Virus record (IMG/VR): IMGVR_UViG_3300022752_000019 | Span: 64,001 to 128,000 of that record | From: a virus | Length of the DNA: 64,000 nt | Direction: 5' to 3' (one strand) | Shown here: positions 2,328 to 63,998 of the stretch, piece by piece | Layout: the number at the start of each line of letters is the position of its first letter | Position numbering within the stretch: position 1 is the first letter of the stretch | Notes under the pieces: model-generated | What the model saw: the letters and a program-made list of their open reading frames with translations, nothing else | Told to the model about the DNA's origin: nothing | The model's database searches: none | Position numbers and translations under genes: made by a program

Positions 2328-4394
2328 TCAGCCGATGGCTCTTCCTGGGTCTGCCTGCGGAGTTCCGTTAGGGGCTGGATTTTGCTGCGCGTTCAGCGGG
2401 TTGACCTGCGATCCCTTGTCATTCATTAGCTGAACAACCAGTTGATACAGCGGTGGGTTCTCAGTCTGCATCTGCTGAAGCGCCTGATACATTGCCTGCT
2501 CACCCTGTTCTTTCTTTAGCGTACGGAAGTACGCGACGGCGCGCTGAGCGACGTACCGCAGGTCTACTCCCCCTGAGCCCGGTTGAATCTGCGACTGAAC
2601 GCCTGCCATGGCAGCAGGCATGCCGGATTCGTTGGGAGCGCCTGCATTTTCTGCATAGGCAGTTGCGCCCTCTGGGAGCCCAGGAGTTTGCTGAGCAGCA
2701 TCGCCAGCCGGGGCCGCCTGCTGCTGTGCAGCGGCTTGCGCGGCGGCTTGCGTGGCGGCTTGCGCGGCGGCGGGGTCTTGTACTCCCATTTGCTGCTGGG
2801 CCTGCTGCATCTGCTGCTGCATCTCCATCTGCGCCTGACCCTGCGCCTTTAGCGTAAGGGCCTGTGCCTTCGCCTGGTAGCGTGAGGTACGAAGCTGCGC
2901 CTCTCCTTGAATGTCGGCAGAGGCAACCTGCATCTTGCGGTTGGCTTGGATCTGCTTCTTGATTTCGCGCCCCATGCGCTCAGATTCAAGATCGAAGTCC
3001 TCGCCCAGTTCCTCCATGAGGCGATGGTCGCTGATCTTCTGCGCTTGGTTGAGCTGGAGGTAGAACATGCTCCTTTGGAGGTCGTCGGCCATGCGGAACT
3101 TGTCGAACCGCGAAGAAACCCGCGGCCACTCCATGAATGCCGCAATCTTCTGCATAATGAAGACGTTGATTAGCTCATGGCGCTGCTTGTTGTAGCCGAG
3201 GAACATGTTCTCGAGCGCGCGGAGCGACGTGCTGGACCCGGACCATTGAAGTCCGCCGAAGATGAACTCCACCGGAATGCCTGCGCCTGCGAGCATCTGT
3301 TCGGCCAGGAGTCTCATCTCCTGGTACATCAGAAGGGCTCGCCCCTGGCCGCCGATCTGCTGGAACCCGATGTTGACAGGTAGGACCGGGATGTAGTTGT
3401 GATCCCGTTTCCACATGTTGATCTCTTCATCGACCCGACGCTTCCAGTTCGTCAGGTTGTAGGCCCCATAAGGCCCTTCATTACCTCCGGTGTTCTGTCC
3501 TGGGAAGATCATCCGCATCGGGACGATATTTTCCATAAGGATCGCTTCGTTCGCCTTCTTCATTACCTGAAGGTAGAACGCGTCCTTCAGGAGCGGGAAG
3601 ATGAGGGGTGTTCCCCAGCCCTGGTCCTTCTGCGCGATTGTCGGGCGCTTCAGGTGGTACAGGTTCTCCTCTGAGAAGAGGAGTGACTTGCCTGCGCGCG
3701 CGGCCTCGAGGAACTCAAGAGGCAGGCTCTCGATCTCGTCACAGTCCCCCATTTTGATGTCGTTGATCACGCTCTTGGGCAGGCGGAAGTAGTACTTCGT
3801 CTGCCCAGTGATCTCGTTGTGCTTGATGTCGATGTTTTCCGGGTTCCAGCGGACCAGTCGAATCTGCCGGAACGAGCGGATGTACACATCGTGCTGCTTG
3901 GCGTAGCCCTCGTGGCCGCAGTCGCACTTGTGCAGGTAGAAGCGAGAGTCGCGCCACTTGTAGCGAAAGCGGTTGGTCTTGGCACGATAGCGTGCCCCGC
4001 AGGAGCTACAGATCAGGTACTTCTCAAAGGGAAGGAACACGGAGACAAACGCGTTCCCGTACACGAAGTAGTCCAGGCCGACCTCGACCTGGAACGAACG
4101 TAGCTTGAGGTGGTCTTCGACCTTCTTGTAGAGCTTGATGACCTCTGGATCATCAGTCTCAAAGATCAGAGGCGTCACCGGATACTCGGCCATCTTTGAA
4201 CAGGCCGCGTTGATCACTGGATTGGTTAGGAAGTAGTACCGGCACCACTTGTGGAGTTCGTGCTGATTGGCCGGAAGAAACTGCTGGGAGATGTCAAAGA
4301 ACGGCGATGGGTAGCGGATGCCAAAGCCTCGCCCACCCTCGGCAGTAACGGGCCGAGGGTTGAAGCGGTTGACCTCGCTTGTGACGACGTTCAT
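2328..4394 (-). CDS. Portal protein with zinc-ribbon insertion and Gln/Ala-rich C-terminus
   Basis: Portal-type motifs NPVINAAC..MAEYP, GLDYFVYGNAFV, LYHLKRP...GWGTPLI and AGAGIPVEFIFGG. Confidence 0.8.
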   Translation of the reverse strand: MNVVTSEVNRFNPRPVTAEGGRGFGIRYPSPFFDISQQFLPANQHELHKWCRYYFLTNPVINAACSKMAEYPVTPLIFETDDPEVIKLYKKVEDHLKLRSFQVEVGLDYFVYGNAFVSVFLPFEKYLICSSCGARYRAKTNRFRYKWRDSRFYLHKCDCGHEGYAKQHDVYIRSFRQIRLVRWNPENIDIKHNEITGQTKYYFRLPKSVINDIKMGDCDEIESLPLEFLEAARAGKSLLFSEENLYHLKRPTIAQKDQGWGTPLIFPLLKDAFYLQVMKKANEAILMENIVPMRMIFPGQNTGGNEGPYGAYNLTNWKRRVDEEINMWKRDHNYIPVLPVNIGFQQIGGQGRALLMYQEMRLLAEQMLAGAGIPVEFIFGGLQWSGSSTSLRALENMFLGYNKQRHELINVFIMQKIAAFMEWPRVSSRFDKFRMADDLQRSMFYLQLNQAQKISDHRLMEELGEDFDLESERMGREIKKQIQANRKMQVASADIQGEAQLRTSRYQAKAQALTLKAQGQAQMEMQQQMQQAQQQMGVQDPAAAQAATQAAAQAAAQQQAAPAGDAAQQTPGLPEGATAYAENAGAPNESGMPAAMAGVQSQIQPGSGGVDLRYVAQRAVAYFRTLKKEQGEQAMYQALQQMQTENPPLYQLVVQLMNDKGSQVNPLNAQQNPAPNGTPQADPGRAIG

Positions 4395-6250
4395 GACTGA
4401 TTGTCCTTTTTCTGCCCGAACGAACTATCGAGCAAGTTTGCAGCGCCGCCAGCAATATCTGCGCCGATATTTTCAGCAGTCGTTCCAATTGCCATTCCGC
4501 CGACTGCCGGAACAATGCCTTTGGCACTGAAGCCTGATCTGCCCGTGTTGGTGAAGAGATTGGACTTACTGAGCCCGAGGTTTCGTCCGCCAAAAAGATG
4601 ACCCGTTGCCGACGCAGTGCCGGCAACTGCCAGTCCCCTTGCAAGTCTTTCTGCGGTACTTCTCTTCTTTCCGGTTTCTGGATCAACCTCCTCAGAGGCA
4701 GCACCGACTCCTCCCAGAACAGGCGCCGCAACTTCCATTACTCGCTCGCCCGGGCCGTAGTACCACATGCCGCGATTTGTTGTTGCAGTGCCTGCGGCAG
4801 CCTGTTCTTGAGCCCGCCTGCCTAAAGTCCGGTACATGCTCTCGATTTTTCCATAGTCAACATTTTGGCCAGCCTGCGCCGCAGAGTCCATTTCATCAAT
4901 TAAAGACCGCAGGCTCTTAGCGGAGTCTTCGTCAAACGCCACGTTTTGGTACTTTTGCCTTCCAGCACTAAGAAATCCTGACCGGCGCAGACTGTCCACG
5001 ATTCCTGGGGAGCCTTGTACCTCATCAAGGGCTTTAAACTGGTCAACTCTACCAACAAGTGGTTTGTTGGCCGCTGCTTGACTACGCAACGTCTCATCTA
5101 AGTTGCGCAAACTTTCCGACATAAGCTCTACTCGCTTAGACTGCGCAGCCCCTCGTGCAAACTCATCGGCTCCTTCTCCTACGTAGCTTGCACCGGTCCT
5201 TAGCCCACGACCCATTGACGTTATGGGCTTAGTTACGACCTCCTTAACTGTGGTCAAGAACTTACCGGCCCGGGCCGGGTTTCTCAGCAACGCGGCGCCG
5301 ATCAATCCCGCGCCGCCTACAGACACCGGATTAACGTGCTTCAAGATTGGAGACGATGGTTGTTTGCTCTGAGTCCCAGGGATCTGTACCTGATCATCAG
5401 GGTTTATAACGTTGTGTGCCGAAATAGCTTTTGGAACATCCGCAATTCCTGCCGTCTTTGTCGCCTGCAATGAAGCAGTGAACTCAAGCAGATCTCCGAT
5501 GCCCTCCATGAGCTTCGATGCGCAGATGTCGTCAGCAGTCTCTTTAAGCGTATGACCGCCGACCGACAGGGCGCGGACAAGCGCCTTCTGAACTCCCGCA
5601 GTCGGGAGTTTCGTGACGACTTTGACTTTGGAGCCGTTGAACTTCTTTTTTAGCTCCTCATCAGGTTCCATCTTCAGAAGGCTGTCGGTGTTGTAACGAT
5701 CGGTGCAGTAGCTACAGAGACCGTCTTCTTTTGGCTCTTCCTCGTTTCCGCACTCACCGCAGACCTGCGTGACCTTTGAGATCAGGGGGTTGAGGAACTC
5801 CAGCGGCTCAGGCACATACCAGATCCCGGACTCGTGAAGCTGCGCCGCCATGTATCGACGCACCTCCTCAGAGAACTCTGGGATGTCGCCGATCGTTCCA
5901 AGGTCCAATCTGATGCGATTCGCAGCATCCACTGCGAGCATTAGGTCGGAGACCGACTGATTGTCGATGTGAGATACGGACGGGATCTTTCCAACGAGCG
6001 CCTGGGAGACCGTGTGGAACGTCTCCCAGCTCGTCCAAAACTGATCGTGGTTGGCGACAGACACCGCCGCCATCAACTTGATCAGAACTACGCGCGGAAT
6101 GTTGATCTTGAGACGGCTCTCCACTGACCGCTTGATGACAAACGGCTCCCACTCCAACGCACCGACACCGAAGAGTCGGAGGTAGGATCGAAGAAGAAGA
6201 AGCGGGTGCGTCTTCTCATTCTTGAAGGTCTGAAGATCAGTAGCCTCCAT
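4391..6250 (-). CDS. Putative virion protein: Cys-containing N-domain, KTAG junction, then Gly-zipper C-terminal module
   Basis: Likely ATG at 6250 overlaps the upstream gene end; ATGA overlap with portal; CGECG/CSYC; Gly-rich hydrophobic segments. Confidence 0.7.
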   Translation of the reverse strand: MEATDLQTFKNEKTHPLLLLRSYLRLFGVGALEWEPFVIKRSVESRLKINIPRVVLIKLMAAVSVANHDQFWTSWETFHTVSQALVGKIPSVSHIDNQSVSDLMLAVDAANRIRLDLGTIGDIPEFSEEVRRYMAAQLHESGIWYVPEPLEFLNPLISKVTQVCGECGNEEEPKEDGLCSYCTDRYNTDSLLKMEPDEELKKKFNGSKVKVVTKLPTAGVQKALVRALSVGGHTLKETADDICASKLMEGIGDLLEFTASLQATKTAGIADVPKAISAHNVINPDDQVQIPGTQSKQPSSPILKHVNPVSVGGAGLIGAALLRNPARAGKFLTTVKEVVTKPITSMGRGLRTGASYVGEGADEFARGAAQSKRVELMSESLRNLDETLRSQAAANKPLVGRVDQFKALDEVQGSPGIVDSLRRSGFLSAGRQKYQNVAFDEDSAKSLRSLIDEMDSAAQAGQNVDYGKIESMYRTLGRRAQEQAAAGTATTNRGMWYYGPGERVMEVAAPVLGGVGAASEEVDPETGKKRSTAERLARGLAVAGTASATGHLFGGRNLGLSKSNLFTNTGRSGFSAKGIVPAVGGMAIGTTAENIGADIAGGAANLLDSSFGQKKDNQS

Positions 6251-7331
6251 TGTTCGTATCCCTGGACTGCGAGGCGAGCCGTGAGAGGAGGATCTGCTGC
6301 TCAAGAGGCATGCCCTTGAAAGTGCCTACCGGATCACGCCGGAATCGCTCAACTACGCTGTCCTCAAAGACATCTTCCAGTCCGGCGTGGCTTGCGGTGC
6401 TGCCCGAGTACCTCTTGAGCATCGACTCCGTAACGTAATCGCCTCCATGAATCCAGGAGTATTCCGCCTGTTTCTCTGTCCCGTAGACAGCCAGGACGGG
6501 GTCCGGGATGTTGTTGCCGTACCGATTCAGGAGCCCTGCCCTCTCATCCATGAGGAACAGCGTCTCCACGACATCATCGGGATCCATCGCCGCTGCCATC
6601 TTGGAAAGGCGAAGGTAGTCGCTCTGGTACTCTGGATTTGCCGTGTACTCCGCTCTCCGCGAAGCGACCTTCTCGAACCTGGGACTCAGCGTAGTCCCGC
6701 TGTAGCGGAAGATGTGATCCGGGACAACGGCGCCCACCGCACTTGCCAGCTTGACAACATCGACTGCGGCCTCATGACGATCGTAGGGATCCAGGTCGTC
6801 CCACTTGCGAATCGTCTCTGAGATCGCATCAAAGGCCGATGCCTGCTTGACCTGGTGGGCGCCAAGGGGCTGCGACATCCCCTTGCCCATCGGGCGGGCA
6901 ATCTGCGAGGGCTCGAAGGACGCAGTCTTGGCATATTGAGTGCTTGACGCGCTCTTCACCAGCACGCGACGTCCATCTCCCGGAAGGTTCTCGCCCTCGT
7001 TTGCCAGAAGGTACAGCGCGGGATGGGACTGAAGCCCGAGATCGTCAGCCGCGTTCAGTAGGTTTGCTGCGGCAACCTTGACGGCCCCGGCAGGGAGATC
7101 GTGCTCCGCGTTGAGCAGATACCACTGAGACAGGAAGGTGTTCCCGGCGTCGTGGCAGGCAAACTTCCTGTGCTCCTTGCCCTGGCTGTCGACGATGATG
7201 AGCGCAAAGTCCCGATCGTACAGGTCATCGCGCTCCTTCCAAGACGCCGTCTTGAGAAACTCAAGCCCGTCCTTCGGCCCAGAAGCGCGGAACAGATCGC
7301 AGAGGTCGTCGTGCTGGTCTACCACTGGCAT
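6237..7331 (-). CDS. Putative head-associated protein rich in K-x-A motifs
   Basis: ATG 7331 with AGGGG SD; first gene of the portal operon; 10 of 17 Lys are in K-x-A. Confidence 0.7.
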   Translation of the reverse strand: MPVVDQHDDLCDLFRASGPKDGLEFLKTASWKERDDLYDRDFALIIVDSQGKEHRKFACHDAGNTFLSQWYLLNAEHDLPAGAVKVAAANLLNAADDLGLQSHPALYLLANEGENLPGDGRRVLVKSASSTQYAKTASFEPSQIARPMGKGMSQPLGAHQVKQASAFDAISETIRKWDDLDPYDRHEAAVDVVKLASAVGAVVPDHIFRYSGTTLSPRFEKVASRRAEYTANPEYQSDYLRLSKMAAAMDPDDVVETLFLMDERAGLLNRYGNNIPDPVLAVYGTEKQAEYSWIHGGDYVTESMLKRYSGSTASHAGLEDVFEDSVVERFRRDPVGTFKGMPLEQQILLSRLASQSRDTNNGGY

Positions 7332-7364
7332 CTTTTTATCCCCTGAAAGGTCGAGTGCAGGTCT

Positions 7365-7382
7365 CATTATACGCAGTCATAA
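7365..7382. promoter_or_regulatory. Divergent promoter region: AGTCATAA on plus, TATAAT on minus
   Basis: CATTATACGCAGTCATAA lies between divergent starts at 7331 and 7415; the TAAA element is absent here. Confidence 0.5.
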
Positions 7383-19627: not shown

Positions 19628-20088
19628 GTAAGAGACCGACCTGCCCGCACTGTGGCGGAATCACACTGGCCCCGTGGTCGCTTGGAAAGATCCGTTGCCG
19701 TACTTGCGGCCGGGCTTTCCAGCGCCACGAGGTTCAGTCTGAGGAGTACGTTCCTCAGAATCCGCGCGGAAGCAGGAGCACGCGAGTGCAGGCTGAGAAG
19801 CAGGAAAGGCGAGTCGCGCGAGACCTCGGCGCTCGTCAAACCATTGCGTCCGGACAGACTCCCGTCGACAAGGCCGACGTAAAGTCGGACCTTCTTCGAG
19901 TGGAGTGCAAATACACGGATAACAAGTCATACTCTTTAAAGGTGGAGGACTTAGTCAAGGTCGCATCACAGGCGACAGGGGATCAAATCCCCTTGTTCTA
20001 TGTTGAATTCCGGGCAAACGGAGAAGCCTACTACGTCGTCCCGGAACATTGGTTCCTGCTGCTCTTGGAGAAGTTCAAAGATGATTAG
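19624..20088 (+). CDS. Hjc-like PD-(D/E)XK Holliday junction resolvase with zinc ribbon
   Basis: CPHC/CRTC; QERRVAR..GA...ASG....KADV.....VECKYT. Confidence 0.75.
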   Translation: MSKRPTCPHCGGITLAPWSLGKIRCRTCGRAFQRHEVQSEEYVPQNPRGSRSTRVQAEKQERRVARDLGARQTIASGQTPVDKADVKSDLLRVECKYTDNKSYSLKVEDLVKVASQATGDQIPLFYVEFRANGEAYYVVPEHWFLLLLEKFKDD

Positions 20089-43461: not shown

Positions 43462-44801
43462 AGGGTTGACCTCAGCGCCTGAGAGAACTGCGCCAGCGAT
43501 GAATCAATAGACCCTACGCCGTCTGCCGCATCTCGCGGGTCTGCGCTGAATAGCGCGCCGTAGTCTCCGCGAAGCATGGAGTCCGCTGCACGAACAAAGC
43601 CCTCATCTCGCAAGGAGCGCAACATCGTCTCGGCGACATCAACTACATCAGCAGAGAACTCAAACTGGAGGGCACGGAGTTCCCCCAGACGATCCTGTGC
43701 CGGGGGCGCGTCTACTCCCAAAGAGGAGAGTGCAGCCGAGGCATCGCGCGTCAGAGCACTGATCTCTGCGGCCAGCGCAGCCAGTCTACGAGCAAGGTCA
43801 GCAACCGATGGACGGTTCTGGAGATTGATCGCGCGCTCTATGGACTCGCCTCGTAGAAAGAGAAGCGGTGTAATCGCGGACTGGAACGACTCAAATTGTG
43901 CATAAGTCGGACTATGAAGCGTGAGCGTGCCTGACGGCAGAGACGCGCTAAGCGTGAGCGTCTTCTGGGAGATGGACACGACCTCTGCGGAGGACTGGCC
44001 TACGAAGACGGTGTCTCCTACTTGGATGTCCAGGAGAGATGGAGACACGGAAAGGGTGACGCTGGCTCCAGCGATGACTGACTTAAAGGGCACCGGACAT
44101 GCGTTGGCCTCGGAAACCTTATACTTCAACAGACCTCTTCTACTCGACAAATTCAGCGCACCCAGCGATGAGACGCAGTCGATGACTCTCTGCGGGCCGG
44201 GCTCAGAGCCGAGGGCCTGGTGAAGCTTCTGAAGGACTGGCCGACGGGCCAGCTCTTGTACGCCCTCGTTGATGACCTCGGCAGACAAGACGTCCGAAAC
44301 TCGCCGCTTTAGCGAGGTTAGCCTACGGGAAACCTCCGCCAGAAGCGCATTGATCCCTGAAAGAGAAGGTGCCTCGCGGAGTCGTTTGTTTACAACAGCT
44401 CCCTTGACTTCGGGTTGCAGCGCCGCCGTCACCTCTCGTAGAAGCGTCGGGATTGGAACAGGGTCTCCCTGTAGAGTGCGCTCGATCATCTCGCGCGCTG
44501 AGCTGGTATCGCCCGGGACAGGGCCGGGGACAAAATCAACCACCTCTTGCACGAGTTCGATGATCTTGCAGAGAATGGCGTGGAGCTGAGCCAGCTCCGA
44601 GAGAATTGGGTTTCTGTTTTTGCACTTAAAGTAGAGAAGGATCTGAGGTTCGGCAACCAGCGCCTGCGCGCACGCCGATCGCGCAAAGTCCCACTTACGC
44701 TTGCGCTCTTCAAACCCGACTACGGCCGCGCCAGGCTGGGTCTTCACCGCCAAGCGAGACTCGAAGTCCCTTGCTGATAGGACGACCCTACGAGACATCA
44801 C
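43458..44801 (-). CDS. Hypothetical structural-region protein
   Basis: 447 aa with 4-bp overlaps to neighbours. Confidence 0.65.
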   Translation of the reverse strand: MMSRRVVLSARDFESRLAVKTQPGAAVVGFEERKRKWDFARSACAQALVAEPQILLYFKCKNRNPILSELAQLHAILCKIIELVQEVVDFVPGPVPGDTSSAREMIERTLQGDPVPIPTLLREVTAALQPEVKGAVVNKRLREAPSLSGINALLAEVSRRLTSLKRRVSDVLSAEVINEGVQELARRPVLQKLHQALGSEPGPQRVIDCVSSLGALNLSSRRGLLKYKVSEANACPVPFKSVIAGASVTLSVSPSLLDIQVGDTVFVGQSSAEVVSISQKTLTLSASLPSGTLTLHSPTYAQFESFQSAITPLLFLRGESIERAINLQNRPSVADLARRLAALAAEISALTRDASAALSSLGVDAPPAQDRLGELRALQFEFSADVVDVAETMLRSLRDEGFVRAADSMLRGDYGALFSADPRDAADGVGSIDSSLAQFSQALRSTL

Positions 44802-45688
44802 ACCACCGTGATCAGAAGGGTATTCAGATCTGGAGGTGCAGGAAAGCGATTTGCATGGGCAAGCCTGCGCTGGAAGAGGATCTCACACTCCCCGACTCCC
44901 ACCGCCGTAATCGTCAGCGTCGATCCCTCCTGATGGACTGTCGCCACGTCTGTGTCGGAAGACTTCGCGCTGATCAGCCAGTCCTTCGGAGATGTGTCAT
45001 CCCCCGACATGTACGGCGCACGGCGGCCGCTCGACAAGACCGCTACTGCCGTAACTTCGGCATCTTCTCCGACCGGTATCGAGAGCGCGTTGGACGAGAG
45101 ATCCACATACGCGACGTACGGCCAGATGAGGTCGGTGAACCCTGTTGAGGGCGCATCCGGCACATATACCGAGAACACCTGCTCCCCGTAGGTCTCTACG
45201 ACGACGTCGTAGCGCGCGTTTCGGAGCAGATCGAACTCAAAGTATCCGTCCGAGTCCGATACAACGAGCACCTTGTCATTCCCAGTTGCCGTGCCCGCGC
45301 TGATCCGCAAGTAGTCCACCAGCATGAACTCGACCGTCACATCAGGCAGTCGCTGGCCCGCAGCTCCGATGACGAATCCACTCACGCGGCAGAGATTTGA
45401 CTGTGTGGCCGGAGGCCGCTCATCAAGGTTCTGCCCTCCGACATCATAAGTGCCGTCCGTACTCACGACGACACTTAGCTTCTTGGGAAAGCTAAATCCC
45501 GCCTTGAAGAAGCGCACCCAGTAAGTTGCGGCAGGCAGCTCGAAAACAACTTCTCCGTTCTCGTCAGTGTCACCACTGTCAATGAAGGAGGATCCATCCG
45601 ACGTGAACACGAATACCGTGGTGGCATCCAGCGCGGTAAGGCGAGTCTCGTCTTCCGAGTCATATGTGTAGAACGTCACCGATGCCAT
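44798..45688 (-). CDS. Virion protein with carboxypeptidase-regulatory-like and Ig-like domains
   Basis: TDENGEVVFELPAATYWVRFFKAG; SDSDGYFEFDL; SSDTDVATV...ITAVGVG. Confidence 0.7.
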   Translation of the reverse strand: MASVTFYTYDSEDETRLTALDATTVFVFTSDGSSFIDSGDTDENGEVVFELPAATYWVRFFKAGFSFPKKLSVVVSTDGTYDVGGQNLDERPPATQSNLCRVSGFVIGAAGQRLPDVTVEFMLVDYLRISAGTATGNDKVLVVSDSDGYFEFDLLRNARYDVVVETYGEQVFSVYVPDAPSTGFTDLIWPYVAYVDLSSNALSIPVGEDAEVTAVAVLSSGRRAPYMSGDDTSPKDWLISAKSSDTDVATVHQEGSTLTITAVGVGECEILFQRRLAHANRFPAPPDLNTLLITVV

Positions 45689-49646: not shown

Positions 49647-49885
49647 TAGGAGAGGGCCGAGGAGAGAGTCGGAAAGAACTCGGAGATAAACTCTTCCGAG
49701 TGGAGACGAGACAACTCTACCGCACGGCGCCGTAGTTGTCTACTTCCCGTCCTGCCTTCGTACGCTATTAGTAGAAGTTCTTTTTCCTTTAAAAGTCTCT
49801 CCTCCTCAATGCGTAACAACTCTAACACATCACTGGCGATCGCATCAATCCGCAGAGAAAACTCCCCCGTCGTCTCGGTCGCCAT
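49646..49885 (-). CDS. Hypothetical protein
   Basis: 1-bp overlaps with both neighbours. Confidence 0.55.
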   Translation of the reverse strand: MATETTGEFSLRIDAIASDVLELLRIEEERLLKEKELLLIAYEGRTGSRQLRRRAVELSRLHSEEFISEFFPTLSSALS

Positions 49886-50718
49886 CAGAAGTTTTCCTCA
49901 TACGCTTTGTACTTGTCCGCGATCTTCTTCTTGACCTGGGACACCTTAGAGTCACTCCACCCGAGGGAGCGTGCAATTTCGCCGGTCGAGGAGGTCTGCT
50001 TCTTACCGCTTAGTCCGAAGAGGTAGCTGAAGACCTGCTGCTCCTCCGTGGTCAGCTCGTACGGCAACATCTCGACAATCTCACGATGGACGGGAGACAT
50101 TTCCGTAAACGGGTTGAGGTCCATCCCTCCTTCTTCGCCACCGGAGGGGATCACGAAGATGTCCGGGCGCATCTCGAGCTTGAGGCGCTCCACCTTCTTT
50201 ACGCCGATCTTCATCCGGTCTGCAATCTCGAGGCTCGTCGGAGGACGCCCAAGCTCCTCGGTGAGTGAGTCCTGCGTCCGCTGAAGCTCTCCAATCTTGT
50301 GTGCCTGTGCCTCGACGATGCGCGTAAAGTTCTGATGCTTCTTCACGAAGCGGTTGAGCCCGCGCAAGTTTGTCGTCACATGGGTCGTGATCTGCGCCCC
50401 GCGCGACGGGTCGTACTTCTTAAGCGCCTTGACTGTCAGCGCGCGAGCCTCGGCTTCGATGGCAGGTCGATACATGCGCGGAGGCGCATGGCGGTTGACC
50501 TGCGCAGTGATCACCGGATTCAACGAGTTCAAGAGGGGCTGGAGCTTCTCTGGGTTCTCGTTGGAGACCTTCCACTGCCTCCAGAGGTCAAGCTCGGTCG
50601 CAGCCTTTCCGGTGTAAGGCACGGCCTTGCCGGAGGGATCTTTCTGCTCCCAGGTTTCCGGGAACTGAAAGGGATCCTTCTCTGCCAGCTTCTCAAGCCT
50701 TTCCCGGAGAGTTCTCAT
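49885..50718 (-). CDS. RNA polymerase sigma factor, sigma70 family group 3 (FliA/SigB/SigF-like)
   Basis: Region 2 ALKKYDPSRGAQITTHV; region 3 ELGRPPTSLEIADRMKI; region 4 LTTEEQQVFSYLFGL...STGEIARSLGWSDSKVSQVKKK. Confidence 0.88.
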   Translation of the reverse strand: MRTLRERLEKLAEKDPFQFPETWEQKDPSGKAVPYTGKAATELDLWRQWKVSNENPEKLQPLLNSLNPVITAQVNRHAPPRMYRPAIEAEARALTVKALKKYDPSRGAQITTHVTTNLRGLNRFVKKHQNFTRIVEAQAHKIGELQRTQDSLTEELGRPPTSLEIADRMKIGVKKVERLKLEMRPDIFVIPSGGEEGGMDLNPFTEMSPVHREIVEMLPYELTTEEQQVFSYLFGLSGKKQTSSTGEIARSLGWSDSKVSQVKKKIADKYKAYEENF

Positions 50719-50960
50719 CGAGACTCGACGGCCCTCTTTAGCAGCTTCGACGCTTGTTCGGCTGACACGCCAAGACGCACATTTCTGCCGTAGTGTTCCT
50801 TGTTCGTGAACAAAGAAGCAAGTTGACGGTACGCGCGTTCTGCCAGAACGTCGCGCGACTTAAACAGGTCGTCTAAGAGAAGATTGGTGTCGCGGAGGTT
50901 GAGGGTTTCCGCAGCAGACGAAAGTTGCGCCTCTGGTCTGCGCTGAAAGAGGTCACTCAT
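50715..50960 (-). CDS. Hypothetical protein
   Basis: Coupled ORF. Confidence 0.6.
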   Translation of the reverse strand: MSDLFQRRPEAQLSSAAETLNLRDTNLLLDDLFKSRDVLAERAYRQLASLFTNKEHYGRNVRLGVSAEQASKLLKRAVESR

Positions 50961-51193
50961 CAGTGGGATCCTTTCATGGCTGCGAGCTGGTGAGCGGTTT
51001 GCAGGTCTCGTAGCTGACGGCTATTCCTACCTTCTTTTAGATCTCGTAGCGAGCCTCCCGCATACATCCCTCCTCCGAGAAGACCGATAGAAGCAAGGCC
51101 GCCGAGAGCCTTTTGATCTGGAGTAAGAGACGCAATGGACGCCATCTTGTCAAGTTCTGCAAAAAAGCCTTGAAACACAGCCCGACTGATCAT
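50960..51193 (-). CDS. Small Gly-zipper protein with FFAELDKMAS leader
   Basis: K-x-A leader followed by ALGGLASIGLLGGGMYAGG. Confidence 0.65.
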   Translation of the reverse strand: MISRAVFQGFFAELDKMASIASLTPDQKALGGLASIGLLGGGMYAGGSLRDLKEGRNSRQLRDLQTAHQLAAMKGSH

Positions 51194-54100: not shown

Positions 54101-54825
54101 ATCTTGTTCCTGAGCCAGTCGGAGAACTGCACTGCATCGAAGATCTTCGCGGCAGTTTCTCCGGAGTCAGCTACGAGCGTCTCCAGCAGGCGTACTTGCC
54201 GCTCATGGACAGTCGTCCACTGATTGACTCCGTAGGTGTGGCCCTGAACGCCCACCAGTCTTTCGATAATCGCAAGTAGACCTCCCAACACACTCGAGCT
54301 GACGGGGCTGGCGGAACTTGTAGGTCCGAGCTGAGAAAGCTGCCGAATCATCTCGGAGGGCGAGTTGATGATGTTGTCAAACTCAGAGTCCAGCGTTGCA
54401 AGGAACCTCGAGCTGTTTGCTAAGATTGGATTATTTTGGTCATCGCTGGTAGTGAAATTCATGCTGTAGATGTAAGAGGTATCGAGGACGTTCGAGAAAT
54501 CCATGCAGTTGAGGGTTACGGACCGCGACCCCATTCCAACTTTGCTCTGAGAAATGCTGAATACTTCGCCGCAAAACAGCAACCTGTAGTCGCTGTTGTC
54601 TGGGCTACTCTTTCCGCTGTTCTTGAATTTGATGTGGTCAAGGTAGAAGAGGTGGACAATCGTTCTTGGGAGGATCAGGTCTACCGTGTCGTGTGGGACG
54701 ATGTCGATGCTTGCGGTCGCGGCCGTACCTACCGCAGCACTGACCGAGGCTCCGATCACGGGAACTTGGATCCCTTCGAGGTAGAGCCGCAGGTCAAGGA
54801 GGTAGCCAGGCGCAGACTGCATCAT
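51196..54825 (-). CDS. Baseplate hub-like tail protein with inserted M15-family Zn peptidase
   Basis: LRLYLEGIQVPV, LLFCGEV, VTLNCMD; ITSAYR...HERGLAIDI...PVHVQ; GMVQAVTHSIS. Confidence 0.7.
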   Translation of the reverse strand: MMQSAPGYLLDLRLYLEGIQVPVIGASVSAAVGTAATASIDIVPHDTVDLILPRTIVHLFYLDHIKFKNSGKSSPDNSDYRLLFCGEVFSISQSKVGMGSRSVTLNCMDFSNVLDTSYIYSMNFTTSDDQNNPILANSSRFLATLDSEFDNIINSPSEMIRQLSQLGPTSSASPVSSSVLGGLLAIIERLVGVQGHTYGVNQWTTVHERQVRLLETLVADSGETAAKIFDAVQFSDWLRNKIGSEGSVISFRRVVDIVLNYIMYAMVPNPVAKYVPGVSLTKPTYPNRDVPEFSIPLAETSQDATFSEFAASGRANTLSLSKKFVDEVTPFLKIVDDTLRRGVLKGGPAEVYITSAYRENAPGDETLTAHERGLAIDIRFRYLDQDKVTKAKILGPVDAPALGNVRMPYKTHAPGKGLERVDGQGSWYLRLRNALYRLSLRDVSVTDVAQLRARIVAYPDIYATIYSSSQELLTSDLILAEDWRTFGAILSGAKTPLLHVLLKIGRGQKIDPLFDSILGIGNDPVHVQYADIPGVTPTTVEDVRLDSGPTSPRERLHSFVLRPDVWFVSPPRSNVMFPDMIQAFTAQREMMRETSRLSLNVGFEFAENSAAVSNTIFAPQINGRASLESQGLNSAAEIIIYDHEKFSGVVPKFERMLDTMFYINKDSGASTTETDETGELALYAPKIAHFHLLNERYQARQASVSLAFSPHIICGFPGVVIDAVITSEEAGNPDFRLNRSFKLGMVQAVTHSISQAGSQTQVRLTHVRSHRTGDKTDDLFSTLINREGTLEIQDPSRADQQLGGEGIFIPMGQKRTVAESGKDFDFGWAAIAASFKRSKIEDLLNDAQLFEVQYGATPKQVIDPTSLPAVGASYDASSDEAETSVTTFKSVRYRGKDVKSGSWTGTPTLVWVRTAVEAQDTSDGVEDTDNTEISISTALPTEFDLGPLDSETDIVLTRFFYNSGQYVISYMPLILPGSQFEADLGGQVDPEKILPVEESLRPIWMSDAYGAERISSEIYDPFFGTRAIVDDVQNSKFSVNSVEEAVDQLCITYAKQVARVDSGSSGEIAPDPLEWIYEYTRRDVATFSEVLGSKRVRYDTTKKAVVNVEPPPPSPLPADAKYYGGFHSNAVNFGRSDYGTELEFLDILDAGLRHTGHSGGQDPFTIDKQEATRLDPRAERAKRVKDYVSAIDGNSALGVTSITGIGKRG

Positions 54826-56483
54826 AGGATCACCGACATGATCGCCCCAATGGTCCCAGGATAGATAACCCCTGTCTCTCCACGAAGCCGTGCAGCCTTG
54901 CTCTCTTGGACGAGACGCTCTTGCTCCGCGTTCCTCTGTGAACGTGCCACCTTCTCCTGAAAGTCTGACCGCTGAGCTGCGCCGAGATTACCGGAGTTCG
55001 GATTCGTAATGCTCTCTTGTAGCTTCTTGCGGCTATTAACCACACTCTTCCCAATAAAGAACGTCGCAACTCCAAACGCAGCTCTGCTGACGATTCGGAG
55101 CGTTTCGGACACTTTCTGGGCCTTATAGTTTGCCCAGTAGTACGATTCTGCCTGCTGCTCGAGAGAATCTGCGCCACGAACCACCGGGCCTGGGAACGGG
55201 GTGACGTCGATGCCGAAGGCTGCAAACGCGGCCACTGACTGTGGGGCGTATAGAGCAGCCTGCCCAGCTTGCGCTAACTCCCTCTTACGAATCTCGAAGT
55301 CTATCAATGCCTCTTGCACAAATGGAAAATTTACTGGGTAGTTTGTGTACTCATCGGTGTTCTGGTAATAGTAGCGTGAAGTGCGTTGGAGGGACTTTAG
55401 CAGGTCGTCCGAAATTTCTCCATCGGTGTTTGAGCGCAGAATGACCGTCTTGGCTGCTCCGGGCTCGTCGGAAAATGCCAAGATTTTTGATCCAAAGAAG
55501 TTTGTTAGTGCAAGACCTTGCAGGCTTTCTACCGCCGATCCCTCAGCAAAGAGCGAGTTCCTTGGAGGACCGGACGCAACGTAATTGATCGGAATTACCA
55601 AGTTCCGCCCAAACAAAAAGTTTCTTGCTTCTCGAACAGTGTTGTCAATTGCCGCATCAATCGCATTTAGAGCGGATGCAAACTTGGACATGCCGGAGGG
55701 CTCTGCCCGAAAAGGAGACAGCTTGATGTTGGTTCGGCGTACTGACGCTGTCGAACTCTCCTCAAGTCGGAGCTGATCCTCTGGACTCGAGAGGGCGCCG
55801 ACGCCCAGTAGGTCTTGTTTCTCACCAATTCGCCGCGGAGCCTCGTAGTAGATCTGCGAACGGACAAGCCTTTCGACGAATATAGAGAAGCTTACCTGGA
55901 TCGTGTAGGGATCCTGGGCAGTGATCATTGAGGTGCAGTTGGTGATGTATCCGCGGATAATGGTCGAGTCTCGGCCGTCGGCGTATGTCAGCTCCGCAAT
56001 TGAGTTTGAGGAAGCCAAGCTCGTTCCACGTAGAGACTGGCTGTAGTTTTCCCACCACTCCTTGTGCCACTCAAAGTCGGCTGAGTTCGGGAGGATGGCA
56101 GTGCAGGAGATGATCCGAGGCTGTTCTCCGAAGAAGAACGCGTAAGTGGCGCCGAATGTCGTGATGAACTGAGACTTTTCGTTCCGAGTCTCGGTTACGT
56201 TCTGAAGTAGGAAGTTATGCGTTGTAACAACCGGACGCCCGGTAGCGGGGGAGCTGGTGTTGATGAGTTGCGATCTTCCCGCCTTATCGACGATGGTCAG
56301 CGAGGCATGCGTATCCTTTGGGACCACAATCCCGCGCATTGGCCTACGAATGAAATCTGGGTTGTCAGTCTCAGCACGCATACCCCAGAACGAGATTTTA
56401 TCTTCACGCTCTCCGAGGTCCGCACTTAAAAATCTCCTGCTCATGTCAACTTCGGCTGCATTTTGGAATACAGTTACGCTCAT
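54822..56483 (-). CDS. Tail tube-initiator/baseplate-like protein
   Basis: NFLLQNVTETRNEKSQFITTFG..YAFFFGEQPR; lies between tape measure and hub. Confidence 0.55.
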   Translation of the reverse strand: MSVTVFQNAAEVDMSRRFLSADLGEREDKISFWGMRAETDNPDFIRRPMRGIVVPKDTHASLTIVDKAGRSQLINTSSPATGRPVVTTHNFLLQNVTETRNEKSQFITTFGATYAFFFGEQPRIISCTAILPNSADFEWHKEWWENYSQSLRGTSLASSNSIAELTYADGRDSTIIRGYITNCTSMITAQDPYTIQVSFSIFVERLVRSQIYYEAPRRIGEKQDLLGVGALSSPEDQLRLEESSTASVRRTNIKLSPFRAEPSGMSKFASALNAIDAAIDNTVREARNFLFGRNLVIPINYVASGPPRNSLFAEGSAVESLQGLALTNFFGSKILAFSDEPGAAKTVILRSNTDGEISDDLLKSLQRTSRYYYQNTDEYTNYPVNFPFVQEALIDFEIRKRELAQAGQAALYAPQSVAAFAAFGIDVTPFPGPVVRGADSLEQQAESYYWANYKAQKVSETLRIVSRAAFGVATFFIGKSVVNSRKKLQESITNPNSGNLGAAQRSDFQEKVARSQRNAEQERLVQESKAARLRGETGVIYPGTIGAIMSVIL

Positions 56484-61670: not shown

Positions 61671-61703
61671 AAGGTCCCCGCAGATAACTGCGGGGCCTTT
61701 TTT
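61671..61703 (+). terminator. Intrinsic terminator after the ligase gene
   Basis: CCCCGCAG-ataa-CTGCGGGG-CCTTTTTT. Confidence 0.8.
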
Positions 61704-62356: not shown

Positions 62357-62456
62357 CATACTTGTGAAGAAACTGAGAAGTCTCCGGAGAAATCGACGAA
62401 GTACTCACCGCACCCAGGGCGTACCGGACTGTTCGGGAAAGCTGGGTGTGATTTTT

Positions 62457-63998
62457 TTAGGAGGACTTCTCTTTCTTGCGCTTATCCCTGAAGTGCTTAA
62501 TCGCAGGCACTCCGAGCACACCAAGACCTCCGAGCTCTACTGCATGCTCGAGGGAGTGGTTCTTGTGTAGGTAGTCTGACAGCGGCTTTGCGGCGCTGCG
62601 CACCCCGGGGATCTTGGCCCCCAGATGGGCCGCGGCCGGGGCAGCTAAGATGCCAAGACCGGCGAGTTCCATTCCGTGGCCGAGGTCTTCGTCCGAAGAC
62701 GCTATCTTAAATGAGGCTTCTTTCAGAGTCGAGTTGCCGCGCTTGGCCGATTTTAGCGCGTTTCTGGCGTCGGACAGAGTTCCATAGAAGTGAATGCCCT
62801 CAGAACCTTTAGCACCGTGAAGGTGACTCTCTGTTCTGCCAAAAGGGCGCCCGTAGTCGCCGCGAGCGTCTGCTACTGACTCTCCGAGCGCAACTGCTTC
62901 CTCTCTCTGCTTCTTTAGCCACGTTTTACTGGCAGGGTTTCCTTTCTTGTTCAGATACCACCAACGGGGATCGGTGACTTGCCCTCTGTACTGTAGAATC
63001 GGCCTTCCTGCCTTCTTCTCAAGTTGTTTTCCGGAAGTCCTATTTTTAGCTGACCCGTCTGCCGGCTCGTTCTTCGGCCAAAGCTCGCGCCGAGCCCAGT
63101 AGTTTGCGCTGAACTTGTCGTTCGCGGTCAGACTTCCGTCCTTTCCGCGGATACCGGCAGAGCGCGTCAGGTAGTTCTTCTTGGCGGCATCTGAGTAGTT
63201 GTGCTTGTAGCCCTTCTGTCCAAAGTGGATCAGCTTGACTTTGTCCCCCTTCTTGGCGAGGACCATCTTCTTCTTCTCAGGCCGGTCGGAGTCGACAGGC
63301 TGATTGTATCCAGGGAACTTCTTGCCTCGGTACTCGACCTCGGCCTCTTTACCCATCGCGTTTGCGATGCGGGCCTTCTTGCCGGCGCTGTACTCCGGGT
63401 GCTCCCGCTTGAGGGCACGGTAGATCTCTTTGACCTTTTCGGGTCGATCTTGGCTTAGAAATGGGGGCATGTCTGCTGCTGTCTTTGCTACAGGTCTCTC
63501 TGGATTAGTGAGCTTTTTTGCTAAGTTGTACTCTGCTACGTTGTAGAGCCCTTTACCAAGGGCTCCTAAGCCAAACCCAATTGCTCCCGCTCCGACTCCT
63601 GCCTTTAGTCGCCTATTTACAATATCTGTAACTTCTGGGTTAAGAGAAACATTCTTGTTCAGTAGCGAATCTATAACAGACCTTGTTCCTGCGTTTTGCA
63701 AAATGGCGTAGTCTTTTACCGCCTGGGCGATAGCCTTTGATCGCGGCTCTGACCGAAGCAACGTACTAGTTACAAAGGGACTTCCAACGGCGGCCCCTGC
63801 CGCTGCGCCTCCGGCAACTCCGGCAGCGCCTGTTGCCAAGACATTATGAGAGTACGCCAGCCCTTTCTGCTCGGGATCCCCTCTGCCTGCGCCAATCCCG
63901 TAAGATCTTGCCGAGTCTTTGAGCCCGATTCCCATCGCCACTTGTGACCCATCTGCGGGATGAGGGACGCCCCCTCCTGTCTTCAAAATTGCAGGAAA
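62457..63998 (-). CDS. Modular polyprotein-like putative virion protein (5' partial): Gly-zipper modules and a DUF5754-like module separated by K-x-A motifs
   Basis: Frame is open to the window edge; junctions AKTAA, GKEAE, EKKAG, LKEAS-FKIAS; KKKMVL...LIHFGQKGY...SANYWAR module. Confidence 0.75.
   Translation of the reverse strand, partial: FPAILKTGGGVPHPADGSQVAMGIGLKDSARSYGIGAGRGDPEQKGLAYSHNVLATGAAGVAGGAAAGAAVGSPFVTSTLLRSEPRSKAIAQAVKDYAILQNAGTRSVIDSLLNKNVSLNPEVTDIVNRRLKAGVGAGAIGFGLGALGKGLYNVAEYNLAKKLTNPERPVAKTAADMPPFLSQDRPEKVKEIYRALKREHPEYSAGKKARIANAMGKEAEVEYRGKKFPGYNQPVDSDRPEKKKMVLAKKGDKVKLIHFGQKGYKHNYSDAAKKNYLTRSAGIRGKDGSLTANDKFSANYWARRELWPKNEPADGSAKNRTSGKQLEKKAGRPILQYRGQVTDPRWWYLNKKGNPASKTWLKKQREEAVALGESVADARGDYGRPFGRTESHLHGAKGSEGIHFYGTLSDARNALKSAKRGNSTLKEASFKIASSDEDLGHGMELAGLGILAAPAAAHLGAKIPGVRSAAKPLSDYLHKNHSLEHAVELGGLGVLGVPAIKHFRDKRKKEKSS

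What the first reader, a model, noticed from the sequence alone, without database searches (positions are those of the whole stretch)
4391..63998. K-x-A tag system: candidate protease-cleavage or packaging signal shared by otherwise unrelated virion-cargo proteins
Seen: K-x-A(S/A/G/E) occurs 10 times in the 6237-7331 protein, at the domain junction of 4391-6250 (TKTAG), in N-terminal leaders of the sigma (LEKLAE) and 50960-51193 (ELDKMAS), in 18319 (VKTAM), and at module boundaries of the 62457 ORF. By eye it is not similarly concentrated in tail or replication proteins. Known: T4 and phiKZ prohead proteases cleave many head proteins at short Glu-ending motifs. Inference: this lineage uses a Lys-x-Ala specificity instead, to load and release internal proteins, including Gly-zipper peptides that may be ejected into the host envelope.
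Basis: partly seen in the sequence, partly recalled or inferred. Interest (0 to 1): 0.85.

Follow-up and report, generated by a model that had tools for sequence, protein, structure and literature searches.

The report
Lys-x-Ala head-protease cutting motif
This uncultured 165-kb phage and its relatives mark their head-assembly proteins with a short Lys-x-Ala-Ser/Ala signal that is most likely where the phage's own capsid-maturation protease cuts, but only one protein in this window clearly carries it, and no cut has been measured.

Summary

**Enrichment.** An unbiased scan of the whole 164.6-kb genome ranks K.AS as the top gapped tripeptide (47 observed, 16.5 expected). Of these, 34 lie in the head-morphogenesis genes, most of them just upstream of the window, or in the window protein 6237-7331. 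That protein has 10 K-x-A where 2.1 are expected, and 0 of 200,000 shuffles reach this.

**Rest of the window.** Elsewhere in the window the motif is at chance (30 K.A[SAGE] observed, 25.9 expected). The sigma, TKTAG and 18319 examples are weak. ELDKMAS (50960-51193) fits the extended consensus, and the sites flanking a domain in the 62457 ORF are suggestive.

**Replication.**
- The enrichment recurs in 10 metagenomic relatives.
- It also recurs in cultured Salmonella phage Arash and Vibrio phage D69.
- All 87 homologues of the 6237 protein carry it.
- The protease family itself carries it: 108 of 136 members have [L/F]-E-K-T-A-S near residue 30.

**Conservation.** The site Lys and Ala are conserved, while the middle residue varies.

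**Best reading (about 0.75).** This is the cleavage code of the phage's own head-maturation protease (genome 43652-45334). The cut is probably K-x-A|S, which resembles herpesvirus assemblin sites rather than the Glu-ending sites of T4 and phiKZ. The Gly-zipper and packaging-tag ideas are not supported here.

Follow-up agents in this scan reported the same motif on several other genomes. I found no paper that describes it.

The parts
6237..7331 (-). Head-module protein of unknown fold (364 aa from the likely start at 7331; the ORF is open to 7367). Predicted multi-site substrate of the head protease.
   Evidence: 10 K-x-A vs 2.1 expected, with 0 of 200,000 shuffles reaching this. 87 homologues carry 473 K.A[SAG] vs 49 expected, each at least 3x its own expectation. 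Sites are conserved while the middle residue varies. No Pfam or PHROG family.
6591..7253 (-). Eight K-x-A-[S/A] sites of that protein, at nt 7242-7253, 7068-7079, 6945-6956, 6918-6929, 6837-6848, 6741-6752, 6660-6671 and 6591-6602. These are residues K27, K85, K126, K135, K162, K194, K221 and K244, counted from 7331.
   Evidence: Coordinates. Matrix scores run from 0.4 to 7.0. K126, K135 and K162 lie in a stretch that is variable, rich in indels and of low confidence (pLDDT about 26).
2328..4394 (-). Portal protein. This shows that the left end of the window belongs to the head-morphogenesis operon.
   Evidence: tblastn: 32% identity to Salmonella phage Arash gp204 'portal protein' (E 1e-84) and a match to Bacillus phage G gp14 portal. 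It has no good-scoring site.
1..1551 (-). N-terminal 517 aa of a 2119-aa fused beta-beta' RNA polymerase (genome 59192-65551), encoded inside the head operon. The motif does not mark it as a substrate.
   Evidence: Pfam Rpb2 domain 6 (E 5e-63) and Rpb1 domains 2, 3 and 5. 10 K.A against about 16 expected, all scoring -1.0 or lower.
51137..51148 (-). K-M-A-S of ELDKMAS, residue 16 of the 77-aa protein 50960-51193. Candidate extra site.
   Evidence: Matrix score 7.2, the second best outside the head block. In the window outside 6237, 3 sites score 5 or more against 0.4 expected. The protein has no homologue in L061 or in 5 related genomes.
63006..63485 (-). K190 (KTAA, nt 63474-63485) and K346 (KKAG, nt 63006-63017) flank the conserved domain, roughly residues 204-338, of the 531-aa ORF 62457-64052.
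   Evidence: Domain: phrog_220 'minor head protein and DNA pilot', E 3e-33. In the multi-domain relatives in L062 and L064, a K-x-A-[S/A] also lies 2-4 residues after the end of the domain. The scores are weak (2.7, -1.0) and the ORF as a whole is not enriched.
50680..50691 (-). K-L-A-E of LEKLAE at residue 10 of the sigma-70-like factor 49885-50718. Judged to be chance.
   Evidence: Matrix score -3.4. K-x-A is kept as QKIAA in the one relative found, but its flanks are equally conserved. Sigma70 regions 3 and 4 match.
5447..5458 (-). K-T-A-G of TKTAG at residue 265 of the 619-aa protein 4391-6250. Judged to be chance.
   Evidence: This is the only K.A in the protein, where about 3.9 are expected from composition. 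Score 1.7.
55674..55685 (-). K-F-A-S of GMSKFAS, residue 267 of the 553-aa protein 54822-56483. Possible extra site.
   Evidence: Matrix score 5.0. Not followed up.
19957..19968 (+). K-V-A-S of DLVKVAS, residue 58 of the 100-aa protein 19786-20088 in the replication module. Probably chance.
   Evidence: Matrix score 6.7. The gene's context among replication genes argues against a head protein.

Best explanation
K-x-A-(S/A/G) is the recognition and cleavage site of the phage's own head-maturation serine protease. The fuller form is [L/M/F]-[E/V/T]-K-x-A-[S/A/G]-[A/V]. The protease is a 560-aa protein encoded outside the window at genome 43652-45334 (window -20348 to -18666).

**Inferred mechanism**
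1. The protease is built into the prohead together with scaffold and core proteins.
2. Once active, it removes short N-terminal leaders. These include MCP at K23, its own leader at K37, and the first sites at residues 17-39 of several head proteins.
3. It frees its catalytic domain at K293.
4. It chops scaffold-like proteins at 5-13 sites so that the fragments can leave the shell.

The scissile bond is probably Ala|Ser, with Lys at P3 and Ala at P1. This is inferred by analogy with the P3-x-P1 format of T4 (L/I-x-E|), phiKZ and SPN3US (S/A/G-x-E|) and herpesvirus assemblin (V/L-x-A|S).

**In this window.** The protein 6237-7331, two genes upstream of the portal, is a multi-site substrate. Its central variable region would be cut out, leaving separate N- and C-terminal pieces.

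**Shown versus inferred.** Shown here: enrichment, restriction to head genes, conservation, and co-occurrence with the protease family. Inferred: that cleavage happens, which bond is cut, and what becomes of the fragments.
For: 1. **Enrichment found without a prior motif.** K.AS is the top X.YZ pattern genome-wide (47 vs 16.5), and 34 of the 47 lie in head genes or in 6237-7331.
2. **Lys-specific and register-specific.** In the head genes K.A is 92 vs 43 expected and R.A is 39 vs 45. Genome-wide, adjacent KA, K..A and the reverse order A.K are not enriched. 39% of head-gene 'AS' dipeptides have Lys at -2, against 5% elsewhere.
3. **Replication in relatives.** K.AS is the top pattern in the 10 kb upstream of the MCP gene in 9 of 10 IMG/VR relatives (MCP identity 81-38%), at about 10-fold enrichment. 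In the most distant relative (37% identity) K.AA leads the K-x-A patterns (11 vs 2.2). The tail side is near expectation.
4. **Replication in cultured phages.** Arash has K.AS 12 vs 1.5 and EK.A 14 vs 1.4. Vibrio phage D69 has 18 vs 1.5 and 15 vs 1.5. Both MCPs carry GL[VT]KEAGA at K27.
5. **Conservation.** In nine head-protein alignments, site Lys and Ala are conserved at 0.72 and 0.77, against 0.37 and 0.45 for other Lys and Ala (p about 1e-7). The middle residue is conserved at only 0.39.
6. **Protease assignment.**
   - phrog_18299 'head maturation protease' matches 15 of 18 family members, best E 3.5e-10.
   - The top structural match among 48,161 chains is T4 gp21 (5jbl_A, Z 3.6, 109 residues aligned), which is weak.
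   - H138 and S194 are invariant in 43 diverse members. Their spacing is 56 residues, against 55 for H85 and S140 of T4 gp21.
   - Inteins sit right after S194-M-G in two relatives.
   - A Gordonia phage homologue is annotated as a capsid maturation protease.
7. **The protease family carries its own motif.** 150 representatives have 671 K.A[SAG] vs 159 expected. 108 of 136 full-length members have the site within residues 11-70, with consensus [L/F]-E-K-T-A-S.
8. **The window substrate.** 87 homologues of 6237-7331 carry 473 sites vs 49 expected.
9. **Published precedent.** Multi-site cutting of propeptides and core proteins is described for T4 and SPN3US (PMC5694885; PMC10052503). Ala|Ser/Thr sites are described for assemblin (PMC4498786).
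Against: - No cleavage has been observed. No N-terminal or semi-specific mass-spectrometry data exist for this phage or its cultured relatives. The Arash paper gives only per-protein coverage, and its supplement has no peptide list.
- The protease fold model is mediocre (pLDDT 61). The gp21 match is weak (Z 3.6). Foldseek, Pfam, a PDB profile search and hhalign against T4 gp21 give nothing significant.
- In Arash, proteins rich in sites (gp220, gp223, gp225) were still detected in virions with high nominal coverage. At the least, they are not fully expelled.
- Several sites in the 6237 protein lie in predicted helices rather than linkers, although that model is poor.
- The scissile bond rests on analogy alone.
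Confidence: 0.75

Rival explanations
1. The motif is a docking or capsid-targeting signal that is not cut. It would bind the scaffold, the portal or the inner shell to recruit proteins into the prohead.
For: The motif is restricted to head-module proteins. T4 uses a short capsid-targeting sequence for its internal proteins (PMC5694885). Site-rich Arash proteins remain detectable in virions.
Against: Up to 13 copies per protein, and copies at both borders of the protease domain, are unnecessary for docking but typical of processing. The single MCP site sits where other phages trim the capsid protein. The preference for small residues after Ala (S over A over G) looks like a protease S1' pocket.
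Confidence: 0.1
2. The sites are cut, but by another enzyme: a host protease or a second phage protease, not the 560-aa protein.
For: The protease assignment rests on a PHROG family name, a weak fold match and conserved His and Ser residues. Other phages use host proteases; staphylococcal phage 80alpha is an example I recall from memory and did not check.
Against: The motif travels with this protease family across phages of very different hosts (Salmonella, Vibrio, Bacillus, Gordonia, many metagenomes). It is also embedded in the protease's own N-terminus in 108 of 136 representatives.
Confidence: 0.07
3. The motif is a by-product of composition or secondary structure, for example Ala/Lys-rich helices or coiled coils in scaffold proteins, and has no role as a signal.
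For: Several carriers are helical, Ala-rich, scaffold-like proteins. The 122-aa protein gives only coiled-coil-type weak hits. A...A is also enriched genome-wide.
Against: Shuffles that keep composition never reach the observed counts. Arg does not substitute for Lys, and other spacings and the reverse order are not enriched. Lys and Ala are conserved while the flanks and the middle residue drift. The motif also occurs in non-helical N-terminal leaders of MCP and the protease.
Confidence: 0.03
4. The conserved Lys is the target of a modification or cross-link (for example an isopeptide bond or acylation) rather than part of a protease site.
For: The Lys is strictly required. Some capsids, such as HK97, cross-link through Lys (PMC12749128).
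Against: The sites are concentrated in scaffold-like and leader regions that other phages discard, not in the mature MCP shell. Mature MCP has no good-scoring site. I did not look for a modifying enzyme in the module.
Confidence: 0.03

Closest known systems
T4 gp21 prohead protease (MEROPS S77) and phiKZ gp175 / SPN3US gp245 (S80), with their x-E| cleavage motifs
   Same: - A phage-encoded protease in the head module.
- A three-residue P3-x-P1 style motif.
- One N-terminal cut in MCP, autoprocessing of the protease, and many cuts in scaffold and core proteins and in long propeptides (PMC5694885; PMC10052503).
- T4 gp21 is the best, though weak, structural match.
- The His-to-Ser spacing is 56 here and 55 in gp21.
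   Different: - All characterised members cut after Glu. Here Glu-ending motifs are not enriched, and the motif is Lys-x-Ala followed by Ser/Ala/Gly.
- No detectable sequence similarity to gp21 (hhalign probability 0.2%) and no Pfam protease family.
- The protein is much longer (560 aa), with a roughly 240-aa C-terminal extension and a Cys-rich insert after the serine.
Herpesvirus assemblin (MEROPS S21) with its release and maturational sites
   Same: - Sites end in Ala followed by Ser or Thr (PrV YLQA|T and VQA|S; PMC4498786). This matches K-x-A-[S/A/G].
- The protease domain lies at the N-terminus of a longer protein. A site follows the domain (K293), and a conserved site lies near the C-terminus (K505, about 55 residues from the end), much like the R and M sites.
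- VZV protease appears among the weak fold matches (Z 2.3).
   Different: - Lys at P3 is required here, whereas assemblin prefers a hydrophobic residue there.
- The herpesvirus Ser-His-His triad was not established here.
- There are many more substrates and sites per virion.
- The host is a bacterium.
- Neither homology nor the scissile bond is shown.
Salmonella phage Arash and Vibrio phage D69 (cultured, unclassified myoviruses of 181-187 kb)
   Same: - They share the protease (33-34% identity), the portal (32%) and, for D69, the MCP (24.5%).
- RNA polymerase genes sit inside the head module.
- They show the same K-x-A-S/A enrichment and the same MCP N-terminal site.
- The Arash virion proteome contains the RNA polymerase subunits and the sigma factor (PMC10585845).
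   Different: - They are very distant. There is no nucleotide similarity, and the 6237-7331 and 4391-6250 proteins have no homologue there.
- The RNA polymerase is split into two genes in Arash and fused into one 2119-aa protein here.
- The Arash paper names no protease (the word 'protease' occurs 0 times in its text).

Membership tests
Phage prohead (head-maturation) serine protease of the assemblin-like fold (T4 gp21 / phiKZ gp175 type) | Assemblin-like protease fold | tested here: inconclusive
   AF2 model of residues 1-300: pLDDT 60.9, pTM 0.59. VIA-align top hit of 48,161 chains is T4 gp21 5jbl_A (Z 3.6, rmsd 4.7, 109 residues aligned); VZV protease scores Z 2.3. Foldseek finds nothing at E<=0.001, with gp21 chains at ranks 10, 23 and 26.
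Phage prohead (head-maturation) serine protease of the assemblin-like fold (T4 gp21 / phiKZ gp175 type) | Conserved catalytic His and Ser | tested here: inconclusive
   H138 and S194 are invariant in 43 diverse members, as are D202 and D252. Spacing is 56 residues vs 55 for H85/S140 of gp21. The only hhalign local match places S194 on gp21 S140, but it is not significant. Inteins are inserted after S194-M-G in two relatives. Catalysis was not tested.
Phage prohead (head-maturation) serine protease of the assemblin-like fold (T4 gp21 / phiKZ gp175 type) | Sequence membership in a curated protease family | tested here: inconclusive
   phrog_18299 'head maturation protease' matches 15 of 18 members, best E 3.5e-10; for this phage's own protein E is 3.6e-4. 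No Pfam family matches at E<=1. No PDB sequence match. hhalign against T4 gp21 gives probability 0.2%.
Phage prohead (head-maturation) serine protease of the assemblin-like fold (T4 gp21 / phiKZ gp175 type) | Encoded in the head module between portal and MCP, next to scaffold-like genes | tested here: met
   Gene order: portal (window 2328-4394), RNA polymerase, site-rich proteins, protease (genome 43652-45334), scaffold-like 122-aa protein, MCP (37771-38898). Arash and D69 have the same order.
Phage prohead (head-maturation) serine protease of the assemblin-like fold (T4 gp21 / phiKZ gp175 type) | Cleaves after Glu in an [L/I/A/S/G]-x-E motif | tested here: not met
   In the head genes: L.E 54 vs 40, I.E 26 vs 20, A.E 42 vs 50, S.E 24 vs 34, G.E 29 vs 36. 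K.A is 92 vs 43. This tests motif enrichment only, not cleavage.
Herpesvirus assemblin (S21) | Cleavage between Ala and Ser/Thr at (V/L/I)-x-A|S | not testable with these tools
   The motif K-x-A-[S>A>G] is compatible with an Ala|Ser bond (PMC4498786). The scissile bond cannot be read from sequence.
Herpesvirus assemblin (S21) | Ser-His-His catalytic triad | tested here: inconclusive
   H137-H138 are adjacent and invariant in the 18 close relatives. Only H138 is invariant in the wider set of 43. No second conserved His was found after S194.
T4-type capsid-targeting sequence (CTS) / internal-protein system | Short N-terminal leader, removed by the head protease, that directs a protein into the prohead core | tested here: inconclusive
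   Nine head proteins have their first site at residues 17-39, which is compatible with removable leaders. I did not look for a shared leader sequence, and targeting cannot be tested in silico.

The most novel reading that the evidence does not exclude
A very large, uncharacterised family of phage head-maturation proteases has a Lys(P3)-x-Ala(P1)|Ser specificity. The family has at least 3,716 clusters at 50% identity in metagenomes, and its cultured members include Salmonella phage Arash, Vibrio phage D69 and Bacillus phage G. The specificity resembles herpesvirus assemblin sites rather than the Glu-ending sites of every characterised large-phage protease. In this lineage the code also trims a set of internal head proteins, including the window's 6237-7331 protein and possibly modules of the 62457 ORF. 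These proteins would be packaged alongside a virion-borne RNA polymerase and sigma factor.
Probability: 0.5. Interest if true: 0.7.

Novelty: new variant of a known kind. Interest (0 to 1): 0.6.

Why it matters
**Practical use.** Maturation cleavage by a head protease is a known principle, but every large-phage protease characterised so far cuts after Glu. A Lys-x-Ala code would give a rule for predicting mature protein ends, removed leaders and scaffold or internal proteins. The rule would apply to thousands of uncultured large phages whose head genes have no annotation.

**Evolutionary link.** An Ala|Ser-type site would also bring phage and herpesvirus maturation proteases closer in specificity, not only in fold.

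**Testability.** The idea can be tested directly, because cultured relatives (Arash, D69, phage G) carry the same motif.

Tried and rejected
**Searches that gave nothing**
- Nucleotide and protein searches of the cultured-phage collection with the 575-aa window protein found no match.
- The 6237-7331 and 4391-6250 proteins have no match in cultured phages.
- Pfam and PHROGs give no family for 6237-7331, 4391-6250 (only a sub-threshold Pre-toxin TG hit) or most site-rich head proteins.

**Protease fold and family**
- Foldseek against the PDB found nothing significant.
- PDB profile searches with A2 and A4 gave only noise.
- hhalign of A2 and A4 against T4 gp21 gave probability 0.2%.
- No Pfam protease family matched any of 18 members.

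**Other attempts**
- The AF2 model of the 6237 protein is too poor (pLDDT 54.8, pTM 0.29) to search by fold or to place sites firmly.
- The protein atlas returned only unnamed viral clusters.
- The Arash supplement holds gene and protein tables only, with no peptides. It therefore gives no evidence on processed ends.
- The 77-aa ELDKMAS protein has no homologue in L061 or in five related genomes, so conservation of its site could not be tested.
- Bacillus phage G shows good sites in its protease and portal, but no significant enrichment over the whole block (K.A 28 vs 16.8).
- Two literature searches were wasted on prefix matches. A search for the motif together with prohead-protease terms found no paper describing it.

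**Gly-zipper idea.** Gly-zipper segments occur in about 20 proteins. Only three or four, all outside the window, follow a reasonable K-x-A site. None of those in the window does.

I did not use complex prediction, because the tool's own notes say an enzyme-substrate pair is rarely worth a job.

Full report
**Setting.** The window is bases 64001-128000 of a single 164,603-bp virus record. I called 208 genes with a codon-usage score trained on the long ORFs.

The left end of the window (1-7367, minus strand) belongs to the head-morphogenesis operon:
- 2328-4394 is the portal (32% identity to Salmonella phage Arash gp204, E 1e-84).
- 1-1551 is the start of a 2119-aa fused beta-beta' RNA polymerase.
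- Further downstream, outside the window, lie site-rich proteins, a head protease, a scaffold-like protein and the MCP (genome 37771-38898), followed by neck and tail genes. The tail genes include a 1242-aa sheath protein.

The rest of the window holds replication genes (plus strand, 7.4-23 kb), giant baseplate or fibre proteins, a sigma-70-like factor and other late genes.

Per-protein shuffles give K.A 289 vs 240 expected (z 3.5) and K.A[SAGE] 136 vs 79 (z 6.7) genome-wide. K.AS is the top X.YZ pattern (47 vs 16.5, Poisson 6e-10). KVA and KTA are among the top contiguous tripeptides, and EK.A is also enriched. Adjacent KA, K..A and the reverse order A.K are not enriched.

Of the 47 K.AS, 34 lie in genome 28160-58678 or in the window protein 6237-7367. 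In the head genes 33 of 85 'AS' dipeptides have Lys at -2. Elsewhere the figure is 14 of 268, which equals the Lys background. In the head genes Arg does not replace Lys (R.A 39 vs 45), and the Glu-ending motifs of T4 and phiKZ are not enriched.

The 6237 protein has 10 K.A (2.1 expected), and 0 of 200,000 shuffles reach this.

All other genes overlapping 4391-64000 together have 30 K.A[SAGE] against 25.9 expected.

**Replication and conservation.**
- The MCP and the 6237 protein recover 38 and 14 related loci from IMG/VR.
- In ten relatives spanning 81-37% MCP identity, K.AS is the top X.YZ pattern in the 10 kb upstream of the MCP gene in nine, at about 10-fold enrichment. K.AA leads the K-x-A patterns in the tenth (L042, 11 vs 2.2). 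The 10 kb on the tail side is near expectation.
- In alignments of nine head proteins, the Lys and Ala of the sites are conserved at 0.72 and 0.77, against 0.37 and 0.45 for other Lys and Ala (p about 1e-7). The middle residue is conserved at only 0.39.
- A protein search found 98 clusters of homologues of the 6237 protein, all unnamed. The 87 full-length ones carry 473 K.A[SAG] against 49 expected. Each is at least 3-fold over its own expectation, down to 28% identity.

**The protease.**
- Genome 43652-45334 encodes a 560-aa protein. Its family matches phrog_18299 'head maturation protease' in 15 of 18 members, best E 3.5e-10.
- Its N-terminal 300 residues fold only moderately (pLDDT 61). T4 gp21 (5jbl_A) is the top hit of 48,161 chains, but at Z 3.6, and VZV protease also appears. 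Foldseek, Pfam, PDB profile searches and hhalign against T4 gp21 give nothing significant.
- H138 and S194 are invariant in 43 diverse members. They are 56 residues apart, against 55 for H85 and S140 of gp21.
- Two relatives carry inteins inserted directly after S194-M-G. Inteins usually sit in catalytic motifs, so this points to S194 as the active-site region (inference).
- The profile finds 3,716 clusters at 50% identity (1,339 at E<=1e-30), so the family is very large.
- In the 150 best representatives K.A[SAG] occurs 671 times against 159 expected. 108 of 136 full-length members have a site within residues 11-70, with consensus [L/F]-E-K-T-A-S.
- In this phage the protease has GLSKTAS at K37 (nearly invariant), MKIAS at K293 just after the catalytic domain, and conserved K-x-A at K317 and K505 in the C-terminal extension.

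**Cultured relatives.**
- The protease domain matches Salmonella phage Arash gp222 (34%), Vibrio phages D69, D181 and D148 (33%), Bacillus phage G gp19 (31%) and Gordonia phage Stormageddon gp13, which is annotated as a capsid maturation protease.
- Arash and D69 show the same enrichment in the genes between helicase and MCP (K.AS 12 vs 1.5 and 18 vs 1.5; EK.A 14 vs 1.4 and 15 vs 1.5). Both MCPs have GL[VT]KEAGA at K27, matching GPTKTAA at K23 here.
- Phage G has good sites in its protease and portal but no block-wide enrichment. Stormageddon shows [K/R].AS.
- The Arash virion proteome lists both RNA polymerase subunits and the sigma factor (PMC10585845). It identified 116 proteins in all, so carry-over of non-structural proteins is possible. 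It gives no peptide-level data.

I built a position matrix from 213 sites in distant relatives only: P5 M/L/F, P4 E/V/T, P2 T/E/Q/V, P1' S>A>G, P2' A/V.
- At a score of 4 or more, the head genes have 21 sites (0.4 expected). The non-head proteome has 10 (2.2 expected). The window outside 6237 has 3 (1.1 expected), or 3 against 0.4 at a score of 5 or more. So a few extra true sites are likely.
- ELDKMAS in 50960-51193 scores 7.2, but the protein is not conserved in relatives.
- TKTAG scores 1.7, the sigma factor's LEKLAE -3.4, ORF 18319 at most 1.2, and the RNA polymerase at most -1.0.
- In ORF 62457 the sites score low. However, K190 and K346 flank the conserved phrog_220 domain, and two multi-domain relatives also have K-x-A-[S/A] 2-4 residues after that domain. 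This is suggestive, not established.
- Gly-zipper segments in the window are not preceded by sites. In two relatives (L052, L055), Gly-rich inserts do lie between sites of the 6237 homologue.

**Mechanism.** The pattern matches what is published for T4 and SPN3US. The head protease removes N-terminal propeptides from the MCP and internal proteins. It processes itself, and it cuts core and scaffold proteins at many motif copies (PMC5694885; PMC10052503).

Here the motif is Lys-x-Ala followed by a small residue. T4, phiKZ, SPN3US and assemblin all read P3 and P1 and cut after the third motif residue, and assemblin cuts Ala|Ser/Thr (PMC4498786). I therefore infer K-x-A|S.

The layout of the protease resembles the herpesvirus protease-scaffold fusion: an N-terminal domain, then a site, then a C-terminal extension with a conserved site near its end.

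For the window protein 6237-7331, I predict cuts at K27 and at up to seven further sites between K85 and K244. These would remove the variable middle region.

**Novelty.** I found no paper that links this motif to a prohead protease. Follow-up agents in this scan reached the same reading on other genomes, and other first-stage readers noted the motif in overlapping windows of this genome. Those are unchecked AI notes. I had found Arash, D69 and phage G myself before reading them.

**Verdict.** The thing is a new specificity within a known kind of system.
- Motif real and specific to head genes: about 0.97.
- Cleavage by the phage's own head protease: about 0.75.
- Ala|Ser as the cut bond: about 0.5.
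- The wider 'cargo tag' and Gly-zipper reading for this window: low.

Noticed in passing
window 1-1551 (gene runs to genome 59192, outside the window): A single 2119-aa protein fuses RNA polymerase beta (Rpb2 domains 6 and 7) and beta' (Rpb1 domains 2, 3 and 5). It is encoded inside the head operon next to the portal. In the distant cultured relative Arash, the split subunits are among the most abundant virion proteins by MS (PMC10585845).
   Followed up: partly
window 49885-50718: Sigma-70-like factor (regions 3 and 4; phrog_351). The Arash sigma Gp10 was detected in virions, so a packaged polymerase plus sigma is conceivable. The K-x-A motif gives no support for its processing.
   Followed up: partly
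L022:2660-5797 and L042:4238-6925 (relatives' protease genes): Inteins with Hint and LAGLIDADG domains are inserted at the same point of the head-protease gene, right after the invariant Ser-Met-Gly. Many of the 150 protease representatives are also split at profile position 197.
   Followed up: partly
L002:1167-4187 (genome 48167-51187, outside the window): The large terminase (GpA ATPase domain) carries an intein with a LAGLIDADG endonuclease.
   Followed up: no
It is probably not a gene.
   Followed up: partly
window 62457-63998 (ORF runs to 64052): About 100 aa of this ORF (residues roughly 235-338) form a domain (phrog_220 'minor head protein and DNA pilot'). The same domain occurs as a stand-alone 93-130-aa protein, and inside larger proteins of differing architecture, in many IMG/VR contigs.
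   Followed up: partly
window 4391-6250: The 619-aa protein between the 6237 protein and the portal has a sub-threshold Pre-toxin TG (PF14449) hit at residues 517-545. It has no homologue in cultured phages.
   Followed up: no
L052:10025-11176 and L055:9986-11476: Homologues of the 6237 protein in two relatives carry Gly-rich, zipper-like inserts in the variable region between conserved K-x-A sites. The window copy has none.
   Followed up: no
L001:2929-6657 (genome 29929-33657, outside the window): The tail sheath protein is unusually long (1242 aa). Only its last 200 or so residues match sheath families.
   Followed up: no
L057 (Arash gp206) and L058 (D69 gene 261): The RNA polymerase beta subunits of Arash and D69 both begin with M-P-K-[S/K]-A-S, a K-x-A-S at the very N-terminus. 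The fused polymerase of this phage does not.
   Followed up: no
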